Shown here in pieces: positions 1 to 43,744 of a DNA stretch of 43,744 bases. A program made the position numbers and the translations under genes. The first letter of the stretch is position 1. Every line of letters starts with the position of its first letter. This DNA comes from a virus. The notes beneath the pieces were generated by a model that saw only the letters and a list, made by a program, of their open reading frames with translations, did no database searches and was not told the origin of the DNA. The stretch is taken from IMG/VR virus record IMGVR_UViG_3300045988_125155; one strand, written 5' to 3'.

Positions 1-177
1 CGAGCCTGTAGCAGATGCCGCGCCCTGCGAGCCTGTAGCAGATGCCGCGCCCTGCCAGCCTGTAGCATATGCCGCGCCCTGCAAGCCTGTAGCAGATGCC
101 GCGCCATGCGAGCCTGTAGCAGATGCCGCGCCCTGCGAGCCTGTAGCATATGCCGCGCCCCGCCAGCCTGTAGCATG
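1..177. repeat. 27-bp tandem repeat array, about 6.5 units of gcctgtagcagatgccgcgccctgcga
   Basis: Units at 4-30, 31-57, 58-84, 85-111, 112-138 and 139-165, plus a partial unit at 166-177. Each unit has 0-3 substitutions. On the minus strand it reads in frame as GAA(S/Y)ATG(S/L/W)(Q/H/R). Confidence 0.9.
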
Positions 178-3092: not shown

Positions 3093-3515
3093 ATGGGCTT
3101 GGATGCGTCGTACATAAAAACGCTGATGGAGCGAGAAAATATCACGCAAGCAGAACTTGCGAGATTGACTGACATACCGCAGGGGACATTATCGAGAATT
3201 TTAAACGGCACAACAGACTGCCCGACATTTGCCAATGTTACGGCCATTGTAAAAGCGCTGCATGGGAGTCTTGATGTGATGGCCGGAATCGTAGACGAGC
3301 CGAACGACAAGCCGATGACGATGACCGAACGGGAGCTATACGAGAAACTGATCGCAGACAAGGAACGGCAGCTGCGCAGTATAAACGGCATATTGGAACA
3401 GAAACAACAATGGATGCGGAAGCTGTGGCGACTGCTGATCGTGATGATAGCAGTTGTCGGCGTGATGCTGGTGCTTGATGTTTCGATTGGGTCGGTTGGA
3501 TTTGTGAGGTACTAA
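3093..3515 (+). CDS. membrane-tethered XRE-family HTH protein
   Basis: ITQAELARLTDIPQGTLSRILNG is an XRE-type HTH. The C-terminal LWRLLIVMIAVVGVMLVLDVSIG is a TM helix. Confidence 0.7.
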   Translation: MGLDASYIKTLMERENITQAELARLTDIPQGTLSRILNGTTDCPTFANVTAIVKALHGSLDVMAGIVDEPNDKPMTMTERELYEKLIADKERQLRSINGILEQKQQWMRKLWRLLIVMIAVVGVMLVLDVSIGSVGFVRY

Positions 3516-6563: not shown

Positions 6564-6634
6564 GGGTATTTGCTCCTTTCAGATTTTGGGTTATGGGGCG
6601 GGGCTGCTTTGCGCTGTGCAGCCCCGCGAGAGTT

Positions 6635-7099
6635 TCAGCGGTGGACAAGTCCATAATAGAAGTACTGCAGGCCGTGACGGACAAAAGCCATATATAGCAG
6701 CCCTTGTGCATCGCTGCTGTGCGGTTCGCCCATCAAAAAACCATCATGACCATCGCGGCGCAGATCGCGCGGCAGGCTGTACGGAGGCAGGCAGTTATAA
6801 AAATCGTCATAGATTTCTGCGGTGATAGCCTGACCGGGGCGGGCGTTAAAAACTCCGGTGCGTTCCCAATCCTGCCGGGTGTAGGTGTCGGCGGTGGGCC
6901 GGTCAGCGGCTAGGTCGCAATAGTGGTTGAACATCAGGCGGGCGTCCTCCGGGTCGTGAGTGCGGTAGCACTCGATTTCCAGGCCATCGGGGTACATGGC
7001 CACAACTTCGATATAGCCACATTCGGCGGTGAGGTCTGCCGCGTCTATGATGATCTTGCGGCCCTGCCAGGTGGTTTCGGTGTGGTGTAGGGTTTTCAT
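6635..7099 (-). CDS. hypothetical protein, 154 aa
   Basis: AAAGGAG RBS and protein-like composition. No domain recognised. Confidence 0.7.
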   Translation of the reverse strand: MKTLHHTETTWQGRKIIIDAADLTAECGYIEVVAMYPDGLEIECYRTHDPEDARLMFNHYCDLAADRPTADTYTRQDWERTGVFNARPGQAITAEIYDDFYNCLPPYSLPRDLRRDGHDGFLMGEPHSSDAQGLLYMAFVRHGLQYFYYGLVHR

Positions 7100-8046: not shown

Positions 8047-8247
8047 ATGGCATCACCAGCACAGATACAGGCAAATGTTAGGTACAATCGCAGCCGGGAC
8101 AGCATCACGATCCGGCCCAGCAAGGAGGACGGCGCAGCAGTGCGGCAGGCAGCAGCAGCAGCCGGGCAGAGTGTGCAAGGCTACATTATGCAGGCATGTT
8201 CCGAGAGGATGCAACGAGAAAATCACGATAAACCGAAAAACACTTGA
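8047..8247 (+). CDS. ribbon-helix-helix (CopG/Arc-like) DNA-binding protein, 66 aa
   Basis: ATG 8047 follows GAGGAGG. ITIRPSKEDGAAVRQAAAAAGQSVQGYIMQACSERM follows a beta-strand plus two-helix RHH pattern. The gene is adjacent to the operator array. Confidence 0.65.
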   Translation: MASPAQIQANVRYNRSRDSITIRPSKEDGAAVRQAAAAAGQSVQGYIMQACSERMQRENHDKPKNT

Positions 8248-8272
8248 CAAAATCGCACTTACATAGTAAAAT
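8244..8272 (+). promoter_or_regulatory. near-consensus promoter overlapping the RHH stop codon
   Basis: TTGACA (8244-8249), 17-nt spacer, TAAAAT (8267-8272). Confidence 0.5.
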
Positions 8273-8277
8273 GTGTA

Positions 8278-8399
8278 TAATGAGCGAACCACGCGAGGAA
8301 GCGAGCTTCCGCGGCGGGGCTCACTCATTATACAGTTTTAACGTATCAACGCAAAAAATAGGTTTCGGGCGTCCAGCTTTACCGCTGGGCGCTTTTTTT
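8278..8399 (+). ncRNA. candidate ~120-nt structured leader or small RNA upstream of terS
   Basis: A long imperfect hairpin spans 8278-8330, with a 13-bp outer stem (2 mismatches) and an inner GGAAG-CGAG-CTTCC. The intrinsic terminator at 8369-8399 follows. No ORF is present. Confidence 0.35.
8369..8399 (+). terminator. intrinsic terminator
   Basis: 9-bp stem GCGTCCAGC / GCTGGGCGC, loop TTTACC, then a T7 run. Confidence 0.8.
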
Positions 8400-8428: not shown

Positions 8429-8995
8429 ATGGCAGAAAAGAAGGCGGCGCAGGCCGTCCAGCTTGGAGAAGTGACCCGCAAGGCAATTGCAGGAGTCGAA
8501 AAAGCCAGGCAAGCAGCAGAACGCGGAGAACTCGTAGATAAGCGCGGAAACAGGATGAACCCGGCCAGCATTGCGAATCTGCGGCCAGGTACAGCAATAA
8601 AGGATATGGAGCCGGAACGAAGGCGGGAAATTCAGCAGGCAGGGCAGAAGGCCAGCGTTGAAGCCCAGAAGAAGCGCCGAACGATTAAGGAGATATATAG
8701 CGACCTGCTACAGCAGCCGGACAGCGTGGAAGGCTTGGAAGATGAGGAACTAGCCCAAACTGTGCAAGAGATGGCACAGAAGAGGGGAAAGCCGATAACT
8801 TTATATGAATCAATCGCGGTTGCGATGGCGGCGAAAGCGAAGGCCGGAGACGTCAAAGCGGCGGTGTTTGTGCGAGATTCTGCGGGCGATAAACCGGCTG
8901 ACCAGATGGAGATTACAGCCGAAACAATGACCGATGCGGATAGAGAATTGATGCAGAACATACAGAAGCGATTGCAAAAGAACGATAATACGTGA
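8429..8995 (+). CDS. terS: terminase small subunit
   Basis: GGAGGG RBS. NPASIANLRPG and AVAMAAKAKAGDVKAAVFVRDSAGDKP match the terS pattern as I recall it. It lies upstream of terL. Confidence 0.7.
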   Translation: MAEKKAAQAVQLGEVTRKAIAGVEKARQAAERGELVDKRGNRMNPASIANLRPGTAIKDMEPERRREIQQAGQKASVEAQKKRRTIKEIYSDLLQQPDSVEGLEDEELAQTVQEMAQKRGKPITLYESIAVAMAAKAKAGDVKAAVFVRDSAGDKPADQMEITAETMTDADRELMQNIQKRLQKNDNT

Positions 8996-9512
8996 TTTCG
9001 CTGTTCGCTAAATAAGTATTTAGCGAAATAGTGGCCGGCAGCAGCGCGGCAGCAGGCGGAAACGGTGCGGAGCTGGGCGGAACCAGCAGGCGGAAACCGG
9101 GGACGGGCTGTAGATAAAGAAGGACGCGCGGGGGTATTTTTTTTGCGGCGGTCTGCCGGGAGAGGACAGGCGGCAGCAGGGTAGGGGGTACCCCCTATAA
9201 AGGGGGAGGCGGGGCTCATAGGTAGCGCGGCTTGGTACGAATATGTTCATTCCCCCAGCGAACATAAAAATAAATTCTCTCCCCTGCCACAAACATCCAT
9301 GAAAAATGAAAGAAAACGCGGGATTGTATCGCAAGCAAGAAACAAGAGTACATATCCCCCCTATGAGGGAACTACACCCTGAATAGCAAAGGTTCCCTAA
9401 AAAAATAAAATTTTGAAATTTTGAGTATCCCGGCGCGGGTGTCAGTTTGAAAACCTCCTCTGACTATGGGACTAGGGCCGTCCGCTTCAAGACCCAGCGG
9501 CCACAATACAAA

Positions 9513-9541
9513 GCGTTCTGCTACGGCAGGGCGCTTTTTTA
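9513..9541 (+). terminator. intrinsic terminator inside the gap
   Basis: Stem GCGTTCTGC / GCAGGGCGC (two G-U pairs), loop TACG, then TTTTTTATTT. Confidence 0.6.
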
Positions 9542-9737
9542 TTTGCTGCATAGCCAGCTGCAAACTGGGCCTGACCAGTCAATGCGGCAAGGGCGCTGCG
9601 CTCCGCAAGCTACGGCGTGGCAAAGGTGCAAGGCCTATGTGCAGTACCAGAGGGCAGGGTCGCAACCTGTCTGTGTGAGCGTGTGCGGTATACCTCACAA
9701 ATGATGACAATGGTCGTGCAAACGGCAAGCCGCACAT

Positions 9738-9795
9738 GCCCTTGTAGCTCAATGGCAAGAGCCTTGGTGTGCCGGTTCAAGTCCGGCTGAGGGCA
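9738..9795 (+). ncRNA. tRNA-like element lacking an anticodon arm (58 nt)
   Basis: Acceptor GCCCTTG / TGAGGGC. D-arm GCTC-AATGGCAA-GAGC. T-arm GCCGG-TTCAAGT-CCGGC. Discriminator A. Only 8 nt (CTTGGTGT) sit where about 23 nt of anticodon arm and variable loop belong. Flanked by GCACATGC at 9732-9739 and 9793-9800. Confidence 0.5.
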
Positions 9796-10123
9796 CATGC
9801 TGGGTCACTCCCACCGGTGAAAGCCCGGCGCAGGCAAAACGCGATAGATAACCTGAACGCTGTAAGCAAAGCGGCAAGCCGATCAGGAGCGCGGCGCGAT
9901 GGCAGACCGCAACGGGACTTCGAGAGCCTGAAAAAGTCTGCCCCACATCTGCTTGCGCGGACGCTGTTACTGACACCGTTGCGCGTTGTGGCCCCCCTTT
10001 AATCAAAGCAGAAACCGCGACCAGCGGACGGGATATAAATAACGCTGGATTACGTTGCAGGTGTGCAGCTGCAACGGGTGAGACCGGCATAGCATAAACC
10101 GGTAGGGCGGGTATGGGGAATTT

Positions 10124-11635
10124 TTGAGGAAATGGGGTGATGTGTTGACGCTGGAAGAGATGCGGGAACTTGAGCGCGAGGCGTGCAGGAAAGACCCGGT
10201 GTATTTTTGCGAAACATATTGCCACATTGAGGACAAGGACGCTGACGAGCTGATACAGCCGTTTACGCTGTGGGACGGGCAAAAAAAAGCACTGGTCGTG
10301 TTTGCCGAGAACCGGCTTGTTTGCGTGCTGAAAGCGCGTCAGCTGGGCTTTACATGGCTGGCGCTGGCAGAGGTAGCGCGGCTTGTGGCGCTGAACACAG
10401 GCCGTACTGCGATTGGCTTGAGCCGGTCAGAGGACGAGGCCAAAGAGCTTGTGCGCCGCCTTGCGGTGATACTGCGGTACATGCCGGGGCTTATCCGAGA
10501 GGTGGACACGCCGGGCGGCAGCGTTGCAGGTTGGACAGGGCCGGTATTCTACAAAAGCACAATGCAGGTGGTTGTGATGTGGCCGGACGGCCCGGAGAGC
10601 GTGTTTAAGGCGTTTCCGTCAAGCCCTGCTGCAGGCCGTTCGTTTACCGCTGATTTGATCGTGATAGACGAATGGGCGTTCCAGCAGTACGCAGAGGAAA
10701 TATGGCAGGCCGCATACCCGGTTATCAACAGACCGTTCGGCGGGCGGGTCATCGGGCTGTCAACCATCAAACTGGGCACGCTGTTTGAGGAAATCTACAC
10801 AAACCCCGGCAACGGTTTTGCAAAGCTGTTTTTGCCGTGGAGCACAGACCCGCGCCGCAGTGAGAAGTGGTACGCACAGACTGTTGCTGCGCTGGGCGAG
10901 GATAAAACGATGCAGGAGTACCCTGCAACTGAAGAAGAAGCGCTCTCCGCCCCCGGAGGGCGCTTTTTTAGTGAGCTTGACAAAGATACCCACTTGGTCG
11001 ATGCGCCGCCTACAGGGTCGCTAAGACGCTATGTGACGATTGACTATGGCCTTGATATGCTGGCGGCACTTTGGATAGCTGTTGACACGCAGGGTCATGC
11101 AACGGTGTACCGGGTGGACGGCGGGCCGAACAAGACGATAGGTGAAGCGGCGGACTTGATTTTGCGCGATTCTGCCGAGGAAGAGATAGACATGTATCTT
11201 GCTCCACCTGACCTGTGGAACCGAAGTCAGGAGAGCGGCAAGAGCCGCGCACAGCTGTTCAGCGAGGCGGGGCTGCCGTTGGTGCAGAGTTCCCGAGATT
11301 TTCCGGCAGGATGCGCAGCCATGAAACAATGGCTGCGTAAGGACGAAAAGAGCGGGAAAGGGTATCTGACATTCTACAAACCGGGCGAGCTGTGGACGTG
11401 CCTGACGAAGATACAGAAGGATGATAAAAACCCCGATGTGTATGCGAAGAACCCGCACGGCCTGACGCATTACCCGGACGCATTACGCTATTTTTGCGTT
11501 TGGTGGACAAGCCCGGCGAAAAAACCTGTGAATATACGAAAGAGGCCGTGGACGGCGGACATGTACGAGGATTACAAGAACGCCAGCCCGAAAGACCGCA
11601 AAATGCTGATTGAGAAATGGGGGAACCCTGCATGA
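10124..11635 (+). CDS. terL: terminase large subunit
   Basis: 503-aa ORF. N-terminal RKDPVYFCETYCHIEDKD, then VLKARQLGFTWL (Walker-A-like region) and LIVIDEWAF (Walker B). The start is uncertain: TTG 10124 or GTG 10142. Confidence 0.9.
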   Translation: MRKWGDVLTLEEMRELEREACRKDPVYFCETYCHIEDKDADELIQPFTLWDGQKKALVVFAENRLVCVLKARQLGFTWLALAEVARLVALNTGRTAIGLSRSEDEAKELVRRLAVILRYMPGLIREVDTPGGSVAGWTGPVFYKSTMQVVVMWPDGPESVFKAFPSSPAAGRSFTADLIVIDEWAFQQYAEEIWQAAYPVINRPFGGRVIGLSTIKLGTLFEEIYTNPGNGFAKLFLPWSTDPRRSEKWYAQTVAALGEDKTMQEYPATEEEALSAPGGRFFSELDKDTHLVDAPPTGSLRRYVTIDYGLDMLAALWIAVDTQGHATVYRVDGGPNKTIGEAADLILRDSAEEEIDMYLAPPDLWNRSQESGKSRAQLFSEAGLPLVQSSRDFPAGCAAMKQWLRKDEKSGKGYLTFYKPGELWTCLTKIQKDDKNPDVYAKNPHGLTHYPDALRYFCVWWTSPAKKPVNIRKRPWTADMYEDYKNASPKDRKMLIEKWGNPA

Positions 11636-43406: not shown

Positions 43407-43744
43407 TCGGATACCTCCACAAGGTCGCCGTTTTTCAGCTTGTACCAGGTGTCAGGCTTGATGTTTTCACCGTCAACTTTAAAGCACTGCACATCTTTAC
43501 GATGCCAGTTAAATTTCTCGTCTATTCCCCATTCTGCAATCACAATCCAGCATCCTAAAGCGCCTTTAGCTTTACTATTAATGCCGAGCGCAGCAGCAAC
43601 GCTTTCCTTGCCTGTAGCAGATGCCGCGCCATGCGAGCCTGTAGCAGATGCCGCGCCCTGCAAGCCTGTAGCAGATGCCGCGCCCTGCAAGCCTGTAGCA
43701 GATGCCGCGCCCTGCGAGCCTGTAGCAGATGCCGCGCCCTGCGA
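43403..43744 (-). CDS. C-terminal part of the junction-wrapping 9-aa-repeat protein
   Basis: The frame is open from the window end (114 codons including the stop), in phase with 507..1. Repeats GAASATG(L/S)(Q/H) are followed by KESVAAALGINSKAKGALGCWIVIAEWGIDEKFNWHRKDVQCFKVDGENIKPDTWYKLKNGDLVEVSE. Confidence 0.75.
   Translation of the reverse strand, partial: SQGAASATGSQGAASATGLQGAASATGLQGAASATGSHGAASATGKESVAAALGINSKAKGALGCWIVIAEWGIDEKFNWHRKDVQCFKVDGENIKPDTWYKLKNGDLVEVSE
43610..43744. repeat. 27-bp tandem repeat array, 5 units, continuous with the array at 1-177
   Basis: Units at 43610-43636, 43637-43663, 43664-43690, 43691-43717 and 43718-43744. Confidence 0.9.

What the first reader, a model, noticed from the sequence alone, without database searches (positions are those of the whole stretch)
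8996..10123. 1.1-kb ORF-free, structure-rich gap separating terS from terL
terS and terL are normally adjacent or overlapping. Here they are 1128 nt apart. The gap has only junk-composition ORFs without RBSs, yet it is dense in structural elements:
- a perfect 10-bp hairpin (9004-9027)
- a duplicated CAGCAGGCGGAAAC 34 nt apart
- mutually exclusive GGGGG/CCCCC/GGGGG arms (9184-9206)
- an internal intrinsic terminator (9513-9541), implying at least two transcription units
- a tRNA-like element
Large ornate ncRNAs such as ROOL and GOLLD are known to reside in phages and prophages of Firmicutes, often next to tRNAs. This is the kind of locus where one would sit, but I cannot verify a match by eye. 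An expanded pac/cos region, or decayed genes, are alternatives.
Basis: partly seen in the sequence, partly recalled or inferred. Interest (0 to 1): 0.7.

Follow-up and report, generated by a model that had tools for sequence, protein, structure and literature searches.

The report
Mosaic non-coding leader before phage terminase
The 1.1-kb gap before the large terminase gene of this uncultured gut phage is real and non-coding; it is not a ROOL or GOLLD RNA but a patchwork of an emptied tRNA/small-gene slot and a 575-base structured RNA cassette that many unrelated gut phages carry in front of their DNA-packaging genes.

Summary
The gap is real and holds no conserved ORF. It runs from 8996 to 10144, because terL most likely starts at TTG 10145. 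Rfam finds no ROOL or GOLLD.

The gap is a mosaic of three blocks:
- **Block A (8996-9425)** is specific to this phage clade. It ends in a promoter-like AT box with GTAC/ATAT palindromes. In remote relatives the same motif sits directly before terL.
- **Block B (9426-9541)** is a conserved leader plus an intrinsic terminator. In 7 relatives it encloses an 88-aa gene.
- **The cassette (9537-10115)** is portable. It has a structured domain C, a 58-nt tRNA-like element with no anticodon arm, and a new 150-nt eight-helix element D. A variable linker and the known Rfam D12-methyl motif follow, ending 29 nt before the terL start.

In sister phages the same gap is 1.05-2.3 kb and carries 1-3 real tRNA genes. 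The cassette recurs at 85-96% identity in over 100 viral contigs with unrelated packaging genes, and in Oscillospiraceae genomes. D follows a tRNA or tRNA-like element in 79 of 81 contexts.

The most likely role is a late-operon leader matured by tRNA-processing enzymes. That role is inferred, not shown. The 'terS' label is unverified.

The parts
8429..8995 (+). Putative small terminase subunit (label unverified)
   Evidence: It falls in PHROG 2412 'unknown function'. It has no Pfam, NCBIfam or PDB hit, and 99 homologues are all unnamed. It sits upstream of terL in synteny, and a homologue overlaps terL by 4 nt in L078.
9004..9027 (+). Perfect AT-rich hairpin 9 nt after the stop codon of the upstream ORF
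   Evidence: I3: 11-nt arms, 100% complementary. It is present in about 25 of 33 close relatives.
9050..9097 (+). Two copies of CAGCAGGCGGAAAC, 34 nt apart, in a G-rich stretch
   Evidence: D1. This stretch is present in only about 13 of 33 close relatives, so it is dispensable.
9184..9206 (.). GGGGG/CCCCC/GGGGG with the 12-bp palindrome GGGGGTACCCCC (9184-9195)
   Evidence: It is conserved in about 28 of 33 close relatives. GGTAC-containing C/G-rich sequence recurs upstream of terL in remote relatives.
9348..9425 (+). Promoter-like control region: GTACATAT-CCCCCC, then the AT box AAAAAAATAAAATTTTGAAATTTTGAG (9399-9425)
   Evidence: The same composite motif (GGTAC-ATAT-CC ... AGAAAATT...ATTTT) lies directly 5' of terL in relatives with 50-58% TerL identity: L049, L050, L056, L059 group, L071, L073, L074. 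It precedes leader B in L017. The promoter function is inferred.
9426..9541 (+). Block B: conserved ~85-nt leader (a hairpin with a CCUCC loop, then a GGCCG...CGGCC stem) ending in an intrinsic terminator (9510-9541)
   Evidence: It is present in all 33 close relatives and nowhere else. The terminator appears. In 7 relatives about 290 nt carrying an 88-aa gene (phrog_774) lie between the leader and the terminator.
9542..9737 (+). Domain C: first part of the portable cassette, non-coding, predicted multi-stem structure
   Evidence: Homology with unrelated phages begins at 9537, at the terminator T run. There is no codon periodicity, and indels are 1 and 4 nt. RNAalifold predicts 54 pairs, 6 of them with compensatory changes among 22 distinct homologues.
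9738..9795 (+). tRNA-like element (TLE): acceptor, D and T arms but no anticodon arm, no encoded CCA
   Evidence: Rfam tRNA scores 40.9 bits, with 18 model positions replaced by 4 nt. ARAGORN finds nothing. Across 18 distinct variants, 99.3% of cells stay paired, with compensatory changes in the D and T stems.
9797..9947 (+). Element D: new conserved structured element of about 150 nt, eight predicted helices, not in Rfam 15
   Evidence: It is present in 33 of 33 close relatives and in at least 119 viral stretches plus 10 bacterial genomes. Covariation is 11 of 32 pairs on the MAFFT alignment and 20 of 32 on the model-fitted alignment, 98% paired against 27-46% for slid controls. The only Rfam hit is sub-threshold, group-II-D1D4-4 at 24.7 bits (gathering score 49).
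9948..10052 (+). Variable linker; contains a -10-like GATATAAAT (10033-10041) about 12 nt before D12-methyl
   Evidence: Its length varies, giving 167-306 nt between the D and D12 anchors. ATAAAT/ATACAA-like hexamers lie at a similar distance from D12-methyl in relatives. The promoter role is speculative.
10053..10115 (+). D12-methyl RNA motif (Rfam RF02950)
   Evidence: It scores 77.8 bits against a gathering score of 57, full length 1-64. Both hairpins covary among 68 distinct copies.
10134..10147 (+). Shine-Dalgarno sequence GGGGTGAT and the probable terL start TTG 10145
   Evidence: The G(G/A)GGTGAT-N3-(T/G)TG arrangement is conserved in relatives.
10145..11635 (+). Large terminase subunit
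   Evidence: PHROG 2, terminase large subunit, E 4.8e-25. The Terminase_6N match is weak.

Best explanation
**What it is.** The spacer between the putative terS and terL is a non-coding, mosaic 'cargo slot plus leader' of the packaging/late operon. It has three blocks.
1. **Block A (8996-9425)** is clade-specific. It ends in a promoter-like AT box flanked by GTAC/ATAT palindromes. Remote relatives have the same motif directly in front of terL.
2. **Block B (9426-9541)** is a conserved ~85-nt leader closed by an intrinsic terminator. It is the shell of a small promoter-gene-terminator unit. Seven sister phages still have an 88-aa gene inside it.
3. **The cassette (9537-10115)** is a horizontally shared 575-nt unit. 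It consists of structured domain C, a tRNA-like element without an anticodon arm, the new eight-helix element D, a variable linker, and the D12-methyl motif 29 nt before the terL start.

Between block B and element D, sister phages carry one to three genuine tRNA genes. The window is the emptied state of that slot.

**How it most likely works.**
- The cassette is transcribed on the terL strand as part of the late transcript.
- The tRNA-like element is recognised by the host tRNA-processing enzymes: RNase P at its 5' end, and RNase Z or equivalent at its 3' end.
- That cut frees D-linker-D12-methyl as the structured 5' leader of the terL mRNA.
- The leader then sets stability, terminator read-through or translation of the late genes.

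**Shown:** composition, absence of coding, mosaicism, tRNA content of relatives, conservation, covariation, and the D-tRNA and D-D12 associations.

**Inferred:** the transcription start, the processing step and the regulatory role.
For: **The gap is a variable slot.**
- The spacing between the upstream ORF and terL ranges from -4 nt to 2345 nt across 79 TerL relatives.
- Close relatives hold tRNA-Ser, Thr, Asp, Trp and atypical tRNAs in the gap.
- They also hold real small genes there, phrog_774 and phrog_419.
- Presence/absence maps show swapped modules.
- tRNA-Ser is flanked by a 16-nt repeat of the terminator tail (L008).

**The cassette is portable.**
- Homology of 85-96% starts at 9537 and ends at 10111 in phages lacking this TerL.
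- Only 30 of 155 distinct loci have a TerL homologue downstream.
- The others have GP3_package terS (42), ParB-methylase (17), SPP1 portal (11), Terminase_3 terL (7) or D12 methylase (7).
- In 18 loci a DUF1492 late-activator gene lies just upstream (PMC3753634).
- The cassette occurs in Oscillospiraceae and other Clostridia genomes.

**It acts at the RNA level.**
- D12-methyl matches Rfam.
- Element D covaries, with G-U pairs that would be A-C mismatches on the other strand.
- The TLE stems are kept by compensatory changes.
- Domain C has 6 compensatory pairs.

**D is coupled to a tRNA.**
- D begins 1-4 nt after a tRNA or tRNA-like element in most contexts. A tRNA or tRNA-like lies within 90 nt in 79 of 81 distinct contexts.
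- At least five tRNA-like types keep acceptor, D and T arms but have a tetraloop, or nothing, in place of the anticodon loop.
- D12-methyl has D upstream in 174 of 192 cases.
- In the 65%-identity TerL clade the D12-methyl core abuts the CCA end of tRNA-Gln. That leaves no room for a separate promoter.
Against: - No transcript data exist. No sigma-70-type promoter is predicted on the + strand inside 9000-10100.
- The cassette starts at a terminator T run, so its transcription needs read-through or an unrecognised promoter.
- A -10-like ATAAAT about 12 nt before D12-methyl could mean the late transcript starts in the linker. C-TLE-D would then be a separate RNA or the 3' end of the upstream unit.
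- Primary-sequence conservation of D is very high (91% mean column identity). That also fits recent horizontal spread or protein or DNA recognition.
- The best covariation counts come from a model-fitted alignment, which leans towards the structure.
- No Ltr-type activator homologue was found in the window.
- The TLE could be a decaying tRNA gene.
Confidence: 0.6

Rival explanations
1. The gap is mostly debris. On this view a former tRNA and small-gene island has lost its cargo. The tRNA-like element is a tRNA pseudogene with a deleted anticodon arm. Block B is an empty gene shell. Conservation reflects only recent common descent. Only D12-methyl is functional.
For: - Relatives carry intact tRNAs and an 88-aa gene in the same slots.
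- The window has no canonical tRNA.
- Parts of block A are missing in many relatives.
Against: - TLE, D and C are kept at 85-96% identity in phages whose flanking genes are unrelated, and in bacterial prophages.
- Changes in stems are compensatory.
- At least five independent tRNA-like types lack an anticodon loop but keep the other arms.
- Block B is present in 33 of 33 close relatives.
Confidence: 0.15
2. The conserved sequences act as DNA rather than RNA. They would be the packaging initiation site (pac/cos) and/or the binding repeats and promoter for a late transcriptional activator lying next to the terminase genes.
For: - The region lies between the putative terS and terL.
- It has direct repeats: the 14-mer twice and (A/G)CGGCAAG three times at 9584, 9723 and 9872.
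- It has palindromes: GGGGGTACCCCC and GGTATACC.
- The GTAC/ATAT plus AT-box motif is shared with remote relatives directly before terL.
- Ltr activators bind DNA repeats upstream of terS (PMC3753634), and a DUF1492 gene precedes the cassette in 18 loci.
Against: - The same cassette precedes non-homologous terminases and methyltransferase genes. That argues against a terminase-specific site.
- Covariation with G-U pairs is strand-specific.
- The Rfam D12-methyl hairpins covary.
- The window is a circularly closed assembly broken in a 27-nt tandem array, so no physical ends are available.

This reading remains plausible for block A (8996-9425). It is compatible with the best explanation there.
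Confidence: 0.15
3. Element D is a self-cleaving ribozyme that trims the 3' trailer of the preceding tRNA or tRNA-like element. HDV-like theta ribozymes do this in gut phages.
For: - D starts 1-4 nt after the tRNA or tRNA-like 3' end in most contexts. That is the same placement as theta ribozymes, which lie within 5 nt of tRNAs in gut phages (PMC10879173).
- The window carries another ribozyme-associated motif, RAGATH-5.
Against: - No HDV-like, hatchet, twister, pistol or hammerhead model reaches E<=10 in the gap.
- The supported helices of D do not thread onto the HDV-like nested double pseudoknot. The 17 nt between the candidate P1 strands cannot hold P2 plus P3, and the first pair is G-C rather than G-U (my own inspection).
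- D is about three times the size of a minimal HDV-like ribozyme.
Confidence: 0.07
4. The gap holds a ROOL or GOLLD-type giant ornate RNA, or an ORF-less group II intron.
For: - tRNA genes neighbour the region in relatives.
- There is a weak group-II-D1D4-4 hit at 9811-9917 (24.7 bits, E 0.0044), repeated in L017 (20.8 bits).
Against: - No ROOL or GOLLD hit appears at any threshold used.
- The group II hit is far below its gathering score of 49.
- There is no domain V/VI match and no intron-encoded protein.
- The region is not an interruption of any gene.
Confidence: 0.02

Closest known systems
D12-methyl RNA motif (Rfam RF02950; Weinberg et al. 2017, PMC5737381)
   Same: Window 10053-10115 is a full-length member at 77.8 bits. 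It has two covarying hairpins and a conserved GGGUGAG...AGGGCGGG. It lies upstream of phage genes, including D12-class and ParB-fused DNA methyltransferases in related loci.
   Different: - The Rfam model covers only 64 nt.
- Here it is the 3' end of a larger conserved unit. D lies upstream in 174 of 192 cases, with a tRNA or tRNA-like element before D.
- The commonest downstream genes are terminase subunits, not methyltransferases.
- The statement that the motif's function is unknown is my recollection of the Rfam entry. The paper's main text does not discuss it.
tRNA-like processing signals, from established knowledge: MALAT1-mascRNA, mitochondrial tRNA punctuation, the E. coli tRNA-tufB operon, RNase P processing of phage P1/P7 C4 RNA
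   Same: A tRNA-shaped element embedded in a longer transcript directly abuts another functional RNA. mascRNA likewise has a reduced anticodon arm.
   Different: Processing is not demonstrated here. The element sits 5' of the partner RNA, and several interchangeable tRNA or tRNA-like types occupy the same position.
HDV-like theta ribozymes next to tRNAs in gut phages (PMC10879173)
   Same: Both are gut phage elements placed within a few nucleotides of a tRNA 3' end.
   Different: D gives no match to HDV-like models. It is about 150 nt with eight helices, and the fold does not fit.
Late-operon control regions of Gram-positive phages (Ltr/RinA/ArpU/DUF1492 activators upstream of terS; PMC3753634), and the moron and tRNA hot spot in lambdoid late leaders (own knowledge)
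   Same: The position matches, at the junction of early genes and the packaging genes. A DUF1492 gene lies directly upstream of the cassette in 18 loci. tRNAs and small genes flanked by terminators accumulate there.
   Different: The window has no detectable Ltr homologue. The region lies after the putative terS rather than before it. A long conserved structured RNA is not part of the described Ltr systems.
ROOL and GOLLD RNAs
   Same: They are associated with prophages and neighbour tRNAs.
   Different: There is no sequence or structure match. The organisation differs and the domains are smaller.

Membership tests
ROOL / GOLLD | Match to the Rfam covariance model at or near the gathering score | tested here: not met
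   There is no hit at gathering thresholds in the whole window, and none at E<=10 in 8800-10300.
D12-methyl RNA (RF02950) | Full-length covariance-model match above the gathering score | tested here: met
   Window 10053-10115 scores 77.8 bits against 57, covering model positions 1-64.
D12-methyl RNA (RF02950) | Two hairpins kept by compensatory changes | tested here: met
   Among 68 distinct copies, P1 varies as GCGG/CCGC, GCAG/CTGC and GCAAAG/CTTTGC, and P2 as ACCGG/CCGGT and CCCGG/CCGGG.
D12-methyl RNA (RF02950) | Located upstream of phage genes, including D12-class methyltransferases | tested here: met
   Downstream genes are terL, GP3_package terS, ParB-N6/N4 methylase, SPP1 portal and MethyltransfD12.
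tRNA gene | Cloverleaf with acceptor, D and T arms | tested here: met
   RF00005 scores 40.9 bits against 29. Across 18 variants, 99.3% of cells are paired.
tRNA gene | Anticodon stem with a 7-nt loop | tested here: not met
   Eighteen model positions are replaced by 4 nt, and ARAGORN finds no tRNA. The element is therefore tRNA-like, not a tRNA.
Phage tRNA/moron cargo island | Variable content among close relatives, with tRNA genes or small genes as discrete inserts bounded by terminators | tested here: met
   Gaps of 1.05-2.3 kb hold 0-3 tRNAs. Further support comes from the module map, the 88-aa gene between leader and terminator, and terminator-tail repeats flanking tRNA-Ser.
HDV-like / theta ribozyme | Placement within about 5 nt of a tRNA 3' end | tested here: met
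   The spacer between the tRNA or tRNA-like end and D is 1-4 nt in most contexts. The criterion is taken from PMC10879173.
HDV-like / theta ribozyme | Nested double-pseudoknot core with a catalytic C; match to HDV-like models | tested here: not met
   No HDV-family hit reaches E<=10. The covariation-supported helices are incompatible with the fold. No self-cleavage assay was possible.
Group II intron | Domains I-VI, with the D5/D6 model match | tested here: not met
   Only a sub-threshold D1-D4-4 hit is found, 24.7 bits against 49, with no Intron_gpII hit.
Ltr-dependent late promoter region | Lies between an Ltr activator gene and terS, and is bound by the activator | tested here: inconclusive
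   A DUF1492 gene lies directly upstream of the cassette in 18 other loci. No homologue is in the window. Binding cannot be tested here.
pac/cos packaging site | Site of terminase cleavage or first headful cut | not testable with these tools
   The window is a circular assembly opened inside a 27-nt tandem array. Contig ends of relatives are scattered.

The most novel reading that the evidence does not exclude
C, the tRNA-like element, D and D12-methyl together form one composite ornate RNA of roughly 380-575 nt with a built-in tRNA mimic. On this reading it is a new class of phage non-coding RNA that spreads horizontally among Oscillospiraceae phages. It would act as an autonomous controller of the late/packaging operon. 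Possible modes are making RNA polymerase terminator-resistant, self-cleaving at the tRNA junction, or sensing the host tRNA-processing or charging state.
Probability: 0.25. Interest if true: 0.75.

Novelty: new variant of a known kind. Interest (0 to 1): 0.55.

Why it matters
- D12-methyl is one of many orphan RNA motifs known only from metagenomes. These results show it is the tail of a much larger conserved unit.
- That unit always begins with a tRNA or a tRNA mimic and sits in front of the DNA-packaging genes of many gut phages. This gives D12-methyl a genomic logic, as a late-operon leader, and a concrete testable mechanism, maturation by tRNA-processing enzymes.
- The cassette is present in cultured strains: Dysosmobacter segnis BX15 and Hominicoprocola fusiformis CLA-AA-H269. 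Experiments are therefore possible.
- The locus illustrates how tRNA genes and small genes are swapped in and out of one hot spot in otherwise near-identical phages.
- Several families of anticodon-less tRNA look-alikes are under selection in phage genomes.

Tried and rejected
- **ROOL, GOLLD and other large Rfam families.** No hits.
- **Group II intron.** Only a sub-threshold partial hit.
- **Protein coding in the gap.**
  - No family hits.
  - ORFs are not conserved.
  - There is no codon periodicity.
- **DNA similarity to cultured phages.** None for the gap. The best TerL relative is an unannotated faecal phage fragment at 60% identity.
- **Verifying the terS label.** PHROGs, Pfam, NCBIfam, PDB sequence search, a homologue-name search, an AF2 model (pLDDT 67, pTM 0.33) and Foldseek against PDB were all uninformative.
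- **The tRNA-like element as a truncated copy of the relatives' tRNA-Trp.** Rejected, because the sequences are unrelated.
- **GCAAC as an enriched binding word.** Not enriched, with 3 copies in the gap against 1.6 per kb genome-wide. GCAACGGG does occur in both D and D12-methyl.
- **An AT-box promoter motif upstream of the cassette in other phages.** Absent.
- **An Ltr homologue in the window.** None.
- **Threading D onto an HDV-like fold, and a CGCUCC/GGAGCG pseudoknot.** Variation does not support either (my inspection).
- **Literature on D12-methyl.** Nothing in searchable full texts, and no supplements are held.
Full report
**1. Observation**

The window encodes a large terminase at 10124-11635 (PHROG 2, E 4.8e-25). 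A 188-aa ORF lies at 8429-8995. Between them there is no ORF with a Pfam match (five ORFs tested).

Relatives conserve G(G/A)GGTGAT-N3-(T/G)TG at the terL start. The start is therefore most likely TTG 10145, and the gap is 8996-10144.

- the perfect hairpin at 9004-9027 and the duplicated 14-mer;
- the G5/C5/G5 run;
- the terminator at 9510-9541;
- the tRNA-like element at 9738-9795.

The 'terS' label could not be verified. The ORF falls in PHROG 2412 'unknown function' and has no Pfam, NCBIfam or PDB match. Its 99 homologues are unnamed. The AF2 model is poor and gives no Foldseek match. The label rests on synteny only: a homologue overlaps terL by 4 nt in L078.

**2. Known RNA families**

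- Rfam at gathering thresholds finds D12-methyl at 10053-10115 (77.8 bits, gathering score 57). It also finds a RAGATH-5 motif outside the gap.
- A permissive scan of the gap adds the tRNA model at 9738-9795 (40.9 bits). The anticodon arm is replaced by 4 nt.
- The same scan gives a sub-threshold group-II-D1D4-4 hit.
- No ROOL or GOLLD is found. ARAGORN finds no tRNA or tmRNA in the window.

**3. The gap in relatives**

Seventy-nine IMG/VR loci encode TerL relatives at 47-100% identity.
- The spacing between the upstream ORF and terL runs from -4 nt (L078) and 65 nt (L051) to 2345 nt (L017). In phages with at least 85% TerL identity it is 1.05-2.3 kb.
- These gaps hold real tRNA genes: Ser-GCU, Thr-UGU, Asp, Trp-CCA, Gln-UUG in the 65% clade, and an odd 84-86-nt 'His-AUG'.
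- In some they hold real small genes, phrog_774 and phrog_419.
- A presence/absence map shows a mosaic. Only about 9428-9540 and about 9800-9940 are present in all 33 close relatives.

The window is thus the cargo-poor state of a variable slot.

**4. Blocks A and B**

Block B (9426-9541) is a conserved leader with a variable hairpin, a CCUCC loop and an invariant core. An intrinsic terminator with compensatory changes follows it.

In L017 and six others, about 290 nt sit exactly between the leader and the terminator. They carry a ribosome-binding site and an 88-aa phrog_774 gene. Block B is therefore a promoter-leader-[gene]-terminator unit that is empty in the window.

Just upstream lies GTACATAT-CCCCCC plus the AT box at 9399-9425. 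This composite motif recurs directly 5' of terL in the 50-58% TerL clades. It is therefore a candidate for the ancestral terL promoter and regulator site.

Parts of block A, including the 14-mer repeats, are missing in many relatives.

**5. The portable cassette**

Exact-pattern scans with cores of D12-methyl and of the conserved element D found 112 and at least 119 viral stretches. Ten bacterial genomes, mostly Oscillospiraceae and other Clostridia, also carry D.

Only 30 of 155 distinct loci have a homologue of this TerL downstream. The rest have other downstream genes:

| Downstream gene | Loci |
|---|---|
| GP3_package terS | 42 |
| ParB-methylase | 17 |
| SPP1-type portal | 11 |
| an unknown 331-aa protein | 11 |
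| Terminase_3 terL | 7 |
| D12 methylase | 7 |

- Homology to the window begins at 9537, the terminator T run, in 35 loci, or at about 9585 in 31 loci. It ends at 10111-10120, with up to 96% identity.
- In 18 loci a DUF1492 protein gene lies immediately upstream. DUF1492 is one of the late-activator families that act just before terS (PMC3753634).
- The cassette therefore occupies the junction between early genes and the packaging module in many phages.

**6. Evidence for RNA**

- Element D (9797-9947) has 1- and 2-nt indels and 91% mean column identity.
- On a MAFFT alignment of 93 distinct copies, 98% of cells pair, against 27-46% in slid controls. Eleven of 32 pairs change on both sides.
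- On a covariance-model alignment that brings in divergent variants and prophage copies, 20 of 32 pairs do so. This alignment is fitted to the structure.
- Frequent G-U pairs fix the strand as that of terL.
- Three stem variants carry the same G(N)AAGCA loop: CGCU/AGCG, CAUCG/CGAUG and CGCCG/CGGCG. They support one hairpin independently.
- Domain C (9542-9737) is non-coding and has 6 compensatory pairs among 54 predicted.
- The D12-methyl hairpins covary.
- D occurs once in the window and is absent from the more distant TerL clades.

**7. Coupling to tRNA**

D begins 1-4 nt after a tRNA or tRNA-like element in most contexts. Among 81 distinct genuine contexts (plus inspection of the ten it left unassigned, five of which were chance 17-mer matches and not D):

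| Upstream of D | Contexts |
|---|---|
| tRNA-like element that ARAGORN rejects | 48 |
| ARAGORN-called tRNA abutting D (11 are the odd 'His-AUG') | 19 |
| tRNA 13-90 nt upstream | 12 |
| none | 2 |

- At least five tRNA-like types keep acceptor, D and T arms. They have a tetraloop stem, or only 8 nt, where the anticodon arm should be.
- The window's type has 18 variants with compensatory D- and T-stem changes.
- D12-methyl has D within 500 nt upstream in 174 of 192 cases.
- In the 65% TerL clade the D12-methyl core (51.6 bits) starts at the CCA end of tRNA-Gln. This argues that the motif is co-transcribed with the tRNA.

**8. Interpretation**

The descriptive conclusion is secure. The gap is a non-coding mosaic made of a clade-specific control region, an empty moron shell with a terminator, and a horizontally shared structured-RNA cassette that ends in D12-methyl.

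The mechanism is inferred. The recurrent tRNA or tRNA mimic directly 5' of D, or of D12-methyl, suggests that RNase P and RNase Z define the ends. D...D12-methyl would then be the mature 5' leader of the late mRNA.

Alternatives remain open:
- a late promoter in the linker (a -10-like ATAAAT about 12 nt before D12-methyl);
- DNA-level roles for block A;
- a new self-cleaving activity in D.

**9. Novelty**

D12-methyl is known. Three things were not found in Rfam 15 or in the searchable literature:
- its embedding in a larger unit with element D and a tRNA mimic;
- its main association with terminase genes;
- the families of anticodon-less tRNA look-alikes.

This is a new variant or extension of a known orphan motif rather than a new kind of system.

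Noticed in passing
window 6587-6639 (- strand): RAGATH-5 RNA motif, just above threshold at 52.3 bits (gathering score 50). It lies at the 3' end of a leftward gene block, about 2.4 kb from the gap.
   Followed up: no
window 1-175 and 43610-43744: Both ends of the window are copies of one 27-nt tandem repeat, CGAGCCTGTAGCAGATGCCGCGCCCTG (6.5 and 5 copies). The contig is therefore a circular or permuted assembly opened inside a repeat array, probably a 9-codon protein repeat. Its ends say nothing about packaging.
   Followed up: partly
window 8244-8272 and 8367-8394: A near-consensus promoter (TTGACA-17-TAAAAT, 11 of 12) is followed about 100 nt later by a strong terminator, directly upstream of the putative terS. 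This is a second 'promoter, short transcript, terminator' arrangement like block B.
   Followed up: no
L002-L032 and many L08x-L25x loci, e.g. L012:2938-3021: An 84-86-nt element that ARAGORN calls 'tRNA-His(atg)' has normal acceptor, D and T arms but an aberrant 32-nt middle. It is one of several non-decoding tRNA look-alikes abutting element D.
   Followed up: partly
L005-L009, L015, L017, L019-L025, L046, L047 (about 150 nt before terL): About half of the close relatives carry an extra conserved module of roughly 147 nt (TTGCCGTCGCTTTCGTTTTTGCGTGACAAC...) between D12-methyl and the terL start. The window lacks it.
   Followed up: no
L035:4734-4770: A near-threshold abiF RNA motif hit (35 bits, gathering score 37) lies between tRNA-Thr and tRNA-Gln in the terS-terL gap of the 65% TerL clade.
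   Followed up: no
L033, about 3380-3510 (upstream of terL): At least eight copies of GCTATCAC/GTGATAGC are packed into about 130 nt just before terL. They look like iteron-type protein-binding repeats, possibly a regulator or terS site, in a 65% TerL relative.
   Followed up: no
L003:8877-8903 and the same place in L011, L017, L024, L028, L046: The block B terminator sequence recurs almost exactly (96%) about 3.9 kb downstream of the terL start. The late operon therefore contains a second copy of the same terminator.
   Followed up: no
L255:2173-2324: In one contig the 5' two-thirds of D is fused directly to D12-methyl at the shared CGCAACGGG word. This suggests that the 3' hairpin of D and hairpin 1 of D12-methyl are related repeats that can recombine.
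   Followed up: partly
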